A program made the position numbers and the translations under genes. Below are positions 8,344 through 9,446 of a stretch of DNA of 45,022 nt, in pieces (the first letter of the stretch is position 1; the number at the start of each line of letters is the position of its first letter). The notes below the pieces were generated by a model. The model saw only the letters and a list, made by a program, of their open reading frames with translations, was not told the DNA's origin and did no database searches. Source of the DNA: Candidatus Saccharimonadales bacterium (GTDB lineage: Bacteria; Patescibacteriota; Saccharimonadia; Saccharimonadales; UBA4665); the NCBI GenBank assembly GCA_035629475.1, contig DASPHS010000039.1, positions 1 through 45,022 on the forward strand, in the 5' to 3' direction.

Positions 8344-8368
8344 AAAAAACCGCCCAGGACCGGACGGT
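8344..8368 (-). terminator. intrinsic terminator downstream of tRNA-Asn
   Basis: The minus strand reads ACCGUCCGGUCCUGGGCGGU followed by UUUUUU (imperfect 7-bp stem plus U tract). Confidence 0.6.
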
Positions 8369-8395
8369 TAGTGTAATACTTGATGGGCAATTCTC

Positions 8396-8718
8396 TGGCT
8401 CCGGGGACTGGATTCGAACCAGCGACCTAGTGGTTACACTTATCTCCTACTTTCGTAGGGGCGTGGACTATATCATCACCCTTCTCCTTTCGGAGTGAGG
8501 GGCAAGGCGCTTCCCATCTTGCAAAACAGCTGCAAAACAGTACTTCCGTAAGGAATAGTCTCTGAACCTTCTCGTACTTGTCGTGTGGACGAGCTTGGCT
8601 GCGGATTAGCATATTCAAACGAACGTAGCTTTCCCGCAATTCACCTTGTTTTCACTAAGCAGTTTCTCACTTAGGCTGCCATTGACAGCCACCCGCTCTA
8701 CCGCTGAGCTACCCCGGA
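8396..8718 (-). tRNA. tRNA-Asn(GUU) interrupted by a group I intron in the anticodon loop; CCA encoded
   Basis: Exons 8718-8685 and 8436-8396 join into a 75-nt cloverleaf: UCCGGGG UA GCUC AGCGGUA GAGC G GGUGG CUGUUAA CCACU AGGUC GCUGG UUCGAAU CCAGU CCCCGGA G CCA. U1-A72 and G73 as in E. coli tRNA-Asn. Confidence 0.85.
8437..8684 (-). ncRNA. group I self-splicing intron, 248 nt, no ORF
   Basis: Core elements in order: P GAAUUGCGGGAAAG (8642-8629), Q AAUCCGCAGC (8607-8598), R GUUCAGAGACUA (8567-8556), S GAUAUAGUCC (8474-8465). P/Q and R/S are complementary. P1 pairs exon GGCUGU with intron GCAGCC, giving a U.G wobble at the splice site. The terminal nucleotide is G. Confidence 0.85.
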
Positions 8719-8763: not shown

Positions 8764-8822
8764 GAAAGATGCGCTCCGCTCTCACAGTACCTGTAGTACG
8801 GCTCGTTTGCGGTGCTCCTTTC
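8764..8822. repeat. copy 3 of a conserved roughly 58-nt hairpin element
   Basis: gaaAGATGCGCTCCGCtctcacAGTACctgtaGTACGGCTCgtTTGCGGTgCTCCTttc aligns with the copies at 27145 and 38959. Confidence 0.6.
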
Positions 8823-8975
8823 GCCTTGTACTGCATCCATATGCAGCTGTCATTGGTCCGTGGTGTGACCAGAGAATTACCATCAAGTTTTGAATGTGCC
8901 GGGCGCTTTGTAGAAAATAAAAAACGCCGTAACGCTAGGGGTAATTATAGCAATTCCTTAACAGATAGCAAGGGG

Positions 8976-9446
8976 CTAACGGGCGTTGGCATTTTTGATG
9001 GCGTTTTGCATCCGCCGGGACTCATCGCGGGCTTTCAGCGTCTGGCGCTTGTCGTACTGTTTCTTACCCTTACCAATGGCAATGCGCATCTTTATGTAGC
9101 GACCTTGTGTCAGTATTTCCAGGGGTACGATAGTCCTGCCCTGCTGCTTGGCTTCAACCAAGTGTTCAATCTCCCGTTTTTTGGCCAGCAACTTACGGCT
9201 ACGGGTCTGACCGCTTTCATCGATGATAATACCGCGGGTGCCATTGATGGTGGCGTTTATCAGCCACAGCTCGCCGTTCTTGACCGTTACGTAAGCGCCG
9301 CGTAGTTGCCCATGGCCCATCCGTAGCGCCTTGGTTTCAGCACCTGTCAAGCTAATGCCGACCACCAAGCTATCACCAAGTTCATAGTCATGGCGTGCGC
9401 GGCGGTTAGTTATCTGCTTGGTCGCAGGTTGTTTCTTCTTTTTCAC
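8976..9446 (-). CDS. smpB: SsrA-binding protein SmpB
   Basis: NRRARHDYELGDSLVVGISLTGAETKALR ... LLAKKREI ... GKGKKQYDKR: typical SmpB pattern and length. Confidence 0.95.
   Translation of the reverse strand: MKKKKQPATKQITNRRARHDYELGDSLVVGISLTGAETKALRMGHGQLRGAYVTVKNGELWLINATINGTRGIIIDESGQTRSRKLLAKKREIEHLVEAKQQGRTIVPLEILTQGRYIKMRIAIGKGKKQYDKRQTLKARDESRRMQNAIKNANAR

What the first reader, a model, noticed from the sequence alone, without database searches (positions are those of the whole stretch)
8396..8718. tRNA-Asn(GUU) gene split by an ORF-less 248-nt group I intron
On the minus strand the two exons (34 nt and 41 nt) assemble into a canonical cloverleaf with anticodon loop CUGUUAA, U1-A72, G73 and an encoded CCA. 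The intervening 248 nt lie between U35 and U36 and contain all four classical group I core elements in the correct order. P and Q are mutually complementary, as are R and S. A P1 helix forms in which the exon end GGCUGU pairs with intron GCAGCC, placing a U.G wobble at the 5' splice site. The intron ends in G. Peripheral hairpins are GAAA-capped (CUCC-GAAA-GGAG, CCUAC-GAAA-GUAGG). The well-characterised bacterial tRNA group I introns that I know of sit in tRNA-Leu(UAA), tRNA-fMet, tRNA-Ile(CAU) and tRNA-Arg(CCU). An Asn(GUU) host with this insertion point is not one I recognise. If this is the only tRNA-Asn gene in a reduced genome, self-splicing would be essential for translation.
Basis: partly seen in the sequence, partly recalled or inferred. 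Interest (0 to 1): 0.68.

Follow-up and report, generated by a model that had tools for sequence, protein, structure and literature searches.

The report
Catalogued self-splicing intron in tRNA-Asn gene
The only asparagine tRNA gene found in this tiny Saccharibacteria-type genome is really interrupted inside its anticodon by an intact self-splicing-type group I intron, but this gene-and-position combination was already catalogued in a 2020 preprint and occurs in many other genomes, so it is a well-supported ordinary case.

Summary
On the minus strand, exon 1 (8718-8685) and exon 2 (8436-8396) join into a canonical 75-nt tRNA-Asn(GUU). The 248 nt between them (8684-8437) match Rfam Intron_gpI over the full model at 91 bits (cut-off 50).

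- **Insertion site:** the joined exons are 100% identical to uninterrupted tRNA-Asn genes in at least 19 genomes of the same order. That fixes the site at U35|U36 and rules out a Thr(UGU) register.
- **Fold:** a 45-member alignment supports P1-P9 and the P3/P7 pseudoknot by covariation. The U.G at the 5' splice site is present in 45 of 45.
- **Not decayed:** the window copy keeps 73 of 73 positions that are at least 90% conserved in the other 44.
- **Only copy found:** no other tRNA-Asn and no other group I intron was detected in the 1.42-Mb, roughly 99%-complete assembly.
- **Relatives:** some have an empty site, some an ORF-less intron, and some a longer intron with an HNH-type endonuclease ORF in the P1 loop.
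- **Novelty:** the host and site are not new. K. P. Williams's 2020 preprint (bioRxiv 10.1101/2020.01.27.920355) includes a seed named "Asn.4Ug".

The parts
8685..8718 (-). tRNA-Asn(GUU) exon 1 (positions 1-35; ends in G34 U35)
   Evidence: 100% identical to the 5' part of uninterrupted tRNA-Asn genes in the same order.
8437..8684 (-). Group I intron, 248 nt, no endonuclease ORF, class 'Asn.4Ug'
   Evidence: Rfam RF00028 at 91 bits, E 3.8e-22. Covariation in a 45-sequence family. 73 of 73 conserved positions kept. Single copy in the genome.
8396..8436 (-). tRNA-Asn(GUU) exon 2 (U36 to the encoded CCA)
8674..8690 (-). P1: exon GGCUGU plus intron C (8690-8684), loop AAU, guide sequence GGCAGCC (8680-8674). 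U35 (8685) forms the U.G wobble at the 5' splice site.
   Evidence: Sequence. The U.G pair is present in 45 of 45 family members and helix 1 is 96.7% paired.
8656..8673 (-). P2 hairpin with a GAAA loop (UAAGUGA/CUGCUUA; the closing A.C is a mismatch in this copy)
   Evidence: 7 of 7 pairs show changes on both sides in the family, 93% paired.
8642..8648 (-). P3 5' strand (CAAGGUG)
   Evidence: Pairs with 8509-8503. 4 of 7 pairs have double changes, 93.6% paired.
8600..8638 (-). P4-P5-P4' domain. P4 is UGCGGG/UCCGCA. P5 carries a GCUACG...UAUGC internal loop that resembles an 11-nt GAAA-tetraloop receptor.
   Evidence: P4 helices are 96-100% paired with double changes. The receptor resemblance is my reading of the sequence.
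8566..8599 (-). P6/P6a (GC..GU and CUCGU/ACGAG)
   Evidence: P6a has 5 of 5 pairs with double changes, 93.5% paired.
8556..8562 (-). P7 5' strand G(A)GACUA with a bulged A (the guanosine-binding helix)
   Evidence: Pairs with 8470-8465. 100% paired and essentially invariant in 45 sequences.
8511..8555 (-). Peripheral insert between P7 and P3' (P7.1 UUCC/GGAA and P7.2 UUUUGC/GCAAGA)
   Evidence: Unique in the genome. It is of the 'UCCnnnnGGAGUAC...GGAAGCG' type seen in non-Saccharimonadales CPR copies. Hairpins at this place are in the consensus structure of the Williams seed alignment.
8503..8509 (-). P3 3' strand (CGCCUUG)
8479..8501 (-). P8 (CCCU/AGGG, then CUCC-GAAA-GGAG)
   Evidence: Sequence. 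The family alignment is poor here (about 50% paired), so support is weak.
8465..8470 (-). P7 3' strand (UAGUCC)
8437..8461 (-). P9 (CCCCUAC-GAAA-GUAGGAG) and the 3' tail ending in omega-G at 8437
   Evidence: P9 has 7 of 7 pairs with double changes, 90% paired. The terminal G is invariant.
8348..8369 (-). Intrinsic-terminator-like hairpin plus T-run, 27 nt after the CCA end
8976..9446 (-). smpB, upstream on the same strand (context). The smpB/tRNA-Asn neighbourhood is shared with intron-free relatives.
   Evidence: Pfam SmpB, E 8e-42. Conserved region next to tRNA-Asn in G001, G003 (no intron) and G007 (intron).

Best explanation
This is the functional, and apparently only, tRNA-Asn(GUU) gene of a Saccharimonadales-type (CPR) bacterium. 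It is interrupted between anticodon nucleotides U35 and U36 by an intact group I intron of the already catalogued 'Asn.4Ug' class.

Inferred mechanism, from the standard group I pathway:
1. The gene is transcribed as a precursor of at least 323 nt, which ends at the terminator at 8369-8348.
2. The intron folds into the P1-P9 core.
3. An external guanosine attacks after U35, which sits in a U.G wobble in P1.
4. The freed 3'-OH of U35 then attacks after the terminal G (8437). This joins GU to U and restores the GUU anticodon.
5. Ordinary end-processing and aminoacylation follow.

The copy carries no homing-endonuclease gene and the genome encodes none, so it is an immobile descendant of a mobile element. 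Sibling introns at the same site carry a 100-136-aa HNH-type ORF in the P1 loop.

Shown: the anatomy, family membership, insertion site, conservation and evolutionary polymorphism. Inferred: that splicing happens, and that it needs no protein.
For: - Full-length Rfam Intron_gpI match at 91 bits, against a cut-off of 50.
- The joined exons give tRNA-Asn(gtt). They are 100% identical over 75 nt to uninterrupted genes in at least 19 genomes of the order. Same-genus genomes G001, G002, G003, G005 and G009 have the empty site. G004, G006 and G007 have introns at the same site.
- Covariation on 45 homologous introns: 86.6% paired against 35-47% for slid controls, score 0.443 against 0.06-0.13, and 0 of 500 shuffles reach it. 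P2, P6a and P9 have double changes at every pair. U.G is present in 45 of 45 and P7 is invariant.
- The window copy matches the consensus at 73 of 73 columns that are at least 90% conserved in the other 44. This is the best score of all 45.
- No other tRNA-Asn among 38 tRNAs. No other exon match and no other group I intron in a 98.7%-complete assembly.
- A terminator lies 27 nt after the CCA.
- The class is in the literature: seed 'Pam37.Asn.4Ug' in Supp. File gpI.sto of bioRxiv 10.1101/2020.01.27.920355.
- HNH-type ORFs sit in the P1 loop of the long siblings. There is no HNH match in this genome.
Against: - There is no RNA evidence.
- No intron of this class has, to my knowledge, been shown to splice in vitro. 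The preprint is purely computational.
- The assembly has 155 contigs and also lacks tRNA-Thr(UGU), Ile(GAU) and Ala(UGC). A second tRNA-Asn in an unassembled part cannot be excluded.
- P2 in this copy closes with an A.C mismatch and two G.U pairs.
- P8 is poorly supported by the alignment.
- No convincing promoter lies directly upstream. The only promoter-like site is about 226 nt upstream (8971-8944).
Confidence: 0.9

Rival explanations
1. The intron is genuine, but splicing in the cell depends on a protein cofactor (an RNA chaperone or a maturase-like factor) and is not truly autonomous.
For: - Many group I introns need helpers in vivo. This is established knowledge, reviewed in PMC3984707.
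- This copy's P2 is weakened by an A.C mismatch and two G.U pairs.
- It carries an extra peripheral domain between P7 and P3'.
Against: - The complete conserved core is present: 73 of 73 positions.
- GNRA loops in P2 and P9 and a receptor-like motif in P5 resemble small self-sufficient tRNA introns (my reading of the sequence).
- No intron ORF is present and no HNH homologue exists in the genome.
Confidence: 0.15
2. The locus is a decaying pseudogene. The intron no longer splices, and asparagine decoding relies on another tRNA-Asn gene that lies in an unassembled part of the genome.
For: - The assembly is fragmented (155 contigs) and lacks several expected tRNAs.
- The intron has lost its endonuclease ORF.
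Against: - The exons are 100% identical to intact genes of relatives.
- The intron keeps every conserved position and ranks best of 45.
- Near-complete relatives with the intron (G004 with about 9 contigs, G012 with 4, G017 with 7, G020 with 2) show no second tRNA-Asn match.
- A terminator is kept.
Confidence: 0.04
3. The splice register is shifted by two bases (exon 1 ends at ...GGCU, the intron ends at ...AUAAG). The product would then be tRNA-Thr(UGU), which is also missing from the assembly.
For: - ARAGORN in intron mode reports 'tRNA-Thr (tgt) i(33,248)'.
- That register also has U before the 5' site and G at the intron end.
- tRNA-Thr(UGU) was not detected in the genome.
Against: - The empty-site genes in relatives read GGCTGT|TAACC, exactly exon 1 plus exon 2 in the Asn register.
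- The U that would precede the shifted site pairs with A, not G, in P1. The U.G at U35 is invariant in 45 of 45.
- The tRNA body has U1-A72 and G73, which are typical of bacterial tRNA-Asn and not of tRNA-Thr (established identity rules; my knowledge).
Confidence: 0.01

Closest known systems
'Asn.4Ug' class of bacterial tRNA group I introns (K. P. [quoted passage not shown]
   Same: - Same host tRNA (Asn, GUU).
- Same insertion point: anticodon-loop position 4, CUGU/UAA, which is 35|36.
- U at -1 and G at omega.
- Same core sequence blocks (GUGAAUU..GGAA, GCAGAGACUA, AGCGCCC, GAUAGUCC).
- A hairpin between P7 and P3' (compared).
   Different: - The seed belongs to the cyanobacterial sub-lineage (like L051, L056, L090). 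It has a long P1 extension and a single P7.1 hairpin.
- The window copy has a minimal 3-nt P1 loop and two hairpins between P7 and P3'.
- Blastn identity to any sampled relative is only about 65-80% where matches extend beyond 90 nt; short terminal stretches reach about 90%.
- The preprint's Table 1 and Fig. 3 are images that are not held, so counts and phyla for the class could not be read.
Classical IC3 tRNA introns: cyanobacterial/plastid tRNA-Leu(UAA) (Leu.3Ug), Azoarcus tRNA-Ile(CAU) (Ile2.5Ug), Agrobacterium tRNA-Arg(CCU) (Arg.5Ug), cyanobacterial tRNA-fMet (fMet.2Ug)
   Same: - Small size (about 200-250 nt).
- Inserted in the anticodon loop directly after a U that forms the P1 U.G wobble.
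- GNRA-capped P2 and P9.
- Conserved ..AGAGACUA.. / ..AUAGUCC.. P7.
- Sporadic distribution. The fMet intron has endonuclease-bearing variants.
   Different: - Different host tRNA and loop position (4, against 3, 5, 5 and 2).
- Extra P7.1/P7.2 hairpins.
- The associated endonuclease is HNH-type and sits in the P1 loop.
- Self-splicing has been shown experimentally for the classical ones but not for this class (my knowledge).
HNH-ORF-bearing sibling introns at the same site (G006, G007, G050, L052, L046 and others)
   Same: Same site, same ribozyme core, same order of bacteria. G006 and G007 are in the same genus.
   Different: They carry a conserved 100-136-aa ORF (C..CG..LHH..CANCHREIH) in the P1 loop. 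Only two of three tested proteins matched Pfam HNH, both below its cut-off (E 0.003 and 0.035). The window copy has none. In G020 the ORF is frameshifted, an intermediate stage of loss.

Membership tests
Group I intron (Rfam RF00028) | Covariance-model score at or above the curated cut-off over the whole core | tested here: met
   91.0 bits against 50, E 3.8e-22, model positions 1-253 of 253.
Group I intron (Rfam RF00028) | 5' splice site after a U that forms a U.G wobble in P1 with an internal guide sequence | tested here: met
   GGCUGU|C pairs with GGCAGCC. The U.G pair is present in 45 of 45 homologues.
Group I intron (Rfam RF00028) | Intron ends in G (omega-G) | tested here: met
   G at 8437. 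This column is invariant in the family alignment.
Group I intron (Rfam RF00028) | P3-P9 core with a P3/P7 pseudoknot, supported by compensatory changes | tested here: met
   86.6% paired, covariation score 0.443 against at most 0.128 for slid controls, 0 of 500 shuffles. P7 is invariant and so uninformative. P8 is weakly supported.
Group I intron (Rfam RF00028) | Guanosine-dependent self-splicing | not testable with these tools
No bench assay was possible.
Asn.4Ug class (Williams 2020) | Host is tRNA-Asn and the intron lies at anticodon-loop position 4 (between 35 and 36) | tested here: met
   ARAGORN on the joined exons. Empty-site genes are identical to exon 1 plus exon 2.
Asn.4Ug class (Williams 2020) | Homology to the class seed Pam37.Asn.4Ug | tested here: met
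   The seed string shares its core blocks, judged by eye, with rows L051, L056, L090 and L138 of alignment A1. The window aligns with those rows throughout the core. No pairwise identity of window to seed was computed.
Subgroup IC3 | Formal subgroup assignment by peripheral architecture and core signatures | not testable with these tools
   No subgroup classifier was on hand. Consistent features: no P5abc, GNRA loops on P2 and P9, a receptor-like loop in P5. The P7.1/P7.2 hairpins are not part of the classical Azoarcus or Anabaena IC3 picture (my knowledge) but are in the Williams consensus structure.
Mobile (homing) group I intron | Encodes, or has access to, a homing endonuclease | tested here: not met
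   The P1 loop is 3 nt. No HNH homologue exists anywhere in the genome (tblastn). Siblings do carry one.

The most novel reading that the evidence does not exclude
The ORF-less intron may be more than a dead remnant.

It may be kept in the sole tRNA-Asn gene because it splits the recognition site of the HNH endonucleases that circulate with sibling introns. Those siblings occur in same-genus genomes, and related introns occur in phage-like contigs that carry tRNA arrays. In that case the intron would act as immunity against repeated cutting of an essential single-copy gene.

The mosaic make-up of this copy fits repeated recombination between intron lineages at this site. Its P7.1/P7.2 domain resembles non-Saccharimonadales CPR introns (up to 69% identity, against 33% to the Saccharimonadales type). 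Its ends are closer to the Saccharimonadales type.
Probability: 0.15. Interest if true: 0.45.

Novelty: new member of a known kind. Interest (0 to 1): 0.2.

Why it matters
- **Annotation:** standard tRNA finders miss this gene (ARAGORN found no tRNA in the window). The genome would be wrongly scored as lacking tRNA-Asn. Published work on CPR genomes has noted the same difficulty (PMC8172020).
- **Biology:** a reduced genome appears to depend on ribozyme splicing to decode AAY codons. The genus shows all stages of a homing-intron life cycle side by side: empty site, HNH-bearing intron, frameshifted ORF and ORF-less intron.
- **Limits:** none of this is new in kind. The class has been catalogued since 2020, and what is still missing is experimental proof of splicing for this class.

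Tried and rejected

- ARAGORN in intron mode on the whole genome gave two further 'split tRNA' calls (C6 and C154). Both are poor cloverleaves with mismatched stems, and I rejected them as false positives.
- I did not build my own covariance model. A 250-position model exceeds the calibration limit. I used Rfam plus DNA alignment and the count of structure pairs instead.

**Ideas tested and dropped**
- The Thr(UGU) register that ARAGORN proposed was rejected on the empty-site and U.G evidence.
- The 44-nt peripheral insert is not a genomic repeat; it has a single copy.
- The + strand ORF at 8769-9305 that I first used as a 'flanking protein' has no Pfam hit. It is the antisense shadow of smpB (8976-9446, minus strand). 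The synteny result stands, but for smpB.

**Literature**
- Eight searches for tRNA-Asn plus group I intron under several spellings found no paper naming this host.
- Paquin et al. 1997 (PMC179611) is not held. The positions of the classical introns are therefore taken from the Williams nomenclature and from my own knowledge.

Full report
**1. The observation**

- Exon 1 is a 34-nt 5' tRNA half (8718-8685, ending ...GGCTGT).
- 248 nt follow (8684-8437, CAATGGCAGCC...GATAAGTG).
- Exon 2 is a 41-nt 3' half (8436-8396, TAACC...GGAGCCA).

ARAGORN finds no tRNA in the window in default mode. It calls a 75-nt tRNA-Asn(gtt) with a regular cloverleaf once the two exons are joined.

Rfam's Intron_gpI model matches 8694-8444 (-) over its full length at 91.0 bits, against a gathering score of 50, with E 3.8e-22. 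This is the only Rfam hit in the 45-kb window and the only group I intron in the whole assembly.

**2. Which splice register?**

ARAGORN's intron mode proposed a register shifted by two bases that would give tRNA-Thr(UGU). Both Asn(GUU) and Thr(UGU) are absent from the 38 tRNAs found in the genome, so this had to be settled. Three lines of evidence settle it.
- Same-genus genomes G001, G002, G003, G005 and G009, and many others, have an uninterrupted gene that equals exon 1 plus exon 2.
- Across 401 genomes of the order, the 75-nt joined sequence is 100% identical to a contiguous gene in at least 19 genomes, and 83-99% identical in many more. Only the cut GGCTGT|TAACC reproduces that sequence.
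- The U before this cut forms the U.G wobble in P1, which is invariant in 45 of 45 homologues. The U of the alternative register would pair with A.

U1-A72 and G73 also fit Asn rather than Thr (identity rules; my knowledge).

**3. Structure and integrity**

I derived a P1-P9 structure for the window copy, with P3/P7 as a pseudoknot and two hairpins between P7 and P3'. I tested it on a MAFFT alignment of 45 homologous ORF-less introns from the same site.

| Measure | Observed | Controls |
|---|---|---|
| Cells forming standard pairs | 86.6% | 35-47% with partners slid |
| Covariation score | 0.443 | 0.056-0.128 with partners slid |
| Shuffles reaching the observed values | 0 of 500 | - |

- P2 (7 of 7), P6a (5 of 5) and P9 (7 of 7) have changes on both sides at every pair.
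- P3 and P4 have double changes at most variable pairs.
- P7 is invariant and fully paired.
- P8 and P7.2 are poorly aligned, at about 50% paired, so they rest on the single sequence.

The window copy agrees with the consensus at all 73 columns that are at least 90% conserved among the other 44 introns. That is the best score of the 45 and argues strongly against decay.

**4. Genomic setting**

- The genome is 1.42 Mb in 155 contigs, 98.7% complete.
Some of the loci most similar to this intron and its exons are titled Saccharimonadales or Saccharibacteria.
- smpB (8976-9446, minus strand; Pfam SmpB, E 8e-42) lies upstream on the same strand.
- A terminator-like hairpin with a T-run (8369-8348) lies 27 nt after the CCA.
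- The only promoter-like site is at 8971-8944, just after smpB.
- The conserved smpB region is adjacent to tRNA-Asn in intron-free (G001, G003) and intron-bearing (G007) relatives. This is therefore one orthologous locus with an intron presence/absence polymorphism.
- The downstream gene encodes an alpha/beta hydrolase (BD-FAE).

**5. The family**

Within the genus:

| State of the tRNA-Asn gene | Genomes |
|---|---|
| Intron present | G000 (the window), G004, G006, G007 |
| Empty site | G001, G002, G003, G005, G009 |
| No match | G008 (74% complete) |

- Introns of about 550 nt (G006, G007, G050, L052 and others) carry a conserved 100-136-aa ORF in the P1 loop, with CxxCG...LHHxD...CANCHREIH motifs. 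Two of three tested proteins matched Pfam HNH, both below its cut-off (E 0.003 and 0.035). In G020 this ORF is frameshifted.
- The window copy has a 3-nt P1 loop, and the genome has no HNH homologue. It is an immobile derivative.
Of these, 57 are tRNA-Asn genes split exactly at 35|36, and 56 of them have inserts of 202-716 nt.
- The record titles name many hosts: Saccharibacteria, many other Patescibacteria, Cyanobacteria (Floridaenema, Phormidium), Melainabacteria, Chloroflexota/Limnocylindria, Elusimicrobia, Gemmatimonadales, Bdellovibrionales and MAGs labelled Gammaproteobacteria.
- Rfam confirms a group I intron in 15 of 18 loci tested.
- Three IMG/VR contigs with tRNA arrays also carry a group I intron in tRNA-Asn.

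**6. Comparison with what is known**

Eight full-text searches found no paper naming tRNA-Asn as a group I host. [quoted passage not shown]

- It extends the four classical settings (Leu.3Ug, Arg.5Ug, fMet.2Ug, Ile2.5Ug, all listed as IC3) to 21.
- Its Table 1 is an image and is not held.
- Its supplementary seed alignment contains 'Pam37.Asn.4Ug'.
- In its nomenclature, position 4 with U at -1 and G at omega is exactly CUGU/UAA, that is 35|36.
- The seed's core blocks match the cyanobacterial rows of my alignment.
- The consensus structure in that file also has two optional hairpins between P7 and P3', so the window's P7.1/P7.2 is within the known range.

**7. What is particular to this copy**

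- It has a minimal P1 loop.
- P2 is weakened by an A.C closing mismatch and two G.U pairs.
- Its make-up is mosaic. The P7.1/P7.2 segment is up to 69% identical to introns of other CPR lineages but only 33% identical to the Saccharimonadales type. The 5' and 3' ends are somewhat closer to the Saccharimonadales type.

These are minor and were not pursued further.

**8. Verdict**

The finding is real and correctly interpreted. It is a new member of a known, previously catalogued class, not a new host or site. Splicing is inferred from intact anatomy and from the gene's apparent indispensability.

Noticed in passing
L166:448-568, L171:4820-4940; also L183, L184, L189, L192, L196 (IMG/VR viral contigs): tRNA-Asn(GUU) genes in phage-like tRNA arrays are split at the same 35|36 point by a 49-nt insert. 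That is far too short for a group I intron and has no Intron_gpI hit. Rfam's tRNA model spans the whole 121 nt.
   Followed up: partly
L170:4402-4597, L188:786-977, L187:3192-3390 (IMG/VR viral contigs): Group I introns (66-88 bits) interrupt tRNA-Asn genes inside tRNA arrays of viral contigs. A 2014 review (PMC3984707) stated that all phage group I introns known then were in protein-coding genes.
   Followed up: partly
L049, L112, L130, L157 (rows of alignment A1): A second, divergent intron lineage occupies the same tRNA-Asn site. Its core (GGGAUAAC..GGUGAA, CGCCGUAGAGACUAGAUACC) looks like the Tyr.4Ug and Thr.2Ug seeds of the Williams alignment, not the Asn.4Ug seed. This suggests independent invasions of one site. 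L049 and L157 fell below the Rfam cut-off.
   Followed up: no
L081 (contig CAYTFL010000170.1, 1963 nt, titled Woesearchaeota archaeon): A bacterial-type tRNA-Asn with a 249-nt intron at 35|36 sits on a short contig binned as archaeal. This is either mis-binning or one of the archaeal cases that earlier notes of this scan discuss.
   Followed up: no
L036:227-589 (G020): The intron's HNH ORF is split by a frameshift into a 69-aa N-terminal piece and a 120-aa piece. It is an intermediate between ORF-bearing and ORF-less introns.
   Followed up: no
whole genome G000: ARAGORN finds no tRNA-Thr(UGU), Ile(GAU), Ala(UGC), Glu(CUC), Leu(GAG) or Val(CAC). Some of these probably lie in unassembled rRNA operons. 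Only one group I intron exists in the assembly, so they are not intron-split in the same way.
   Followed up: partly
window 8944-8971 (-) and 8975-8990 (+): A promoter-like site (TTGCTA, 16-nt spacer, TATAAT with an upstream TG) starts 5 nt after the smpB stop, about 226 nt upstream of the tRNA. A terminator-like hairpin lies on the opposite strand at the same place. The long leader is unexplained.
   Followed up: no
window 8769-9305 (+): A 178-aa ATG ORF with no Pfam hit is the antisense shadow of smpB. Its 'conservation' in relatives comes from smpB on the other strand.
   Followed up: yes
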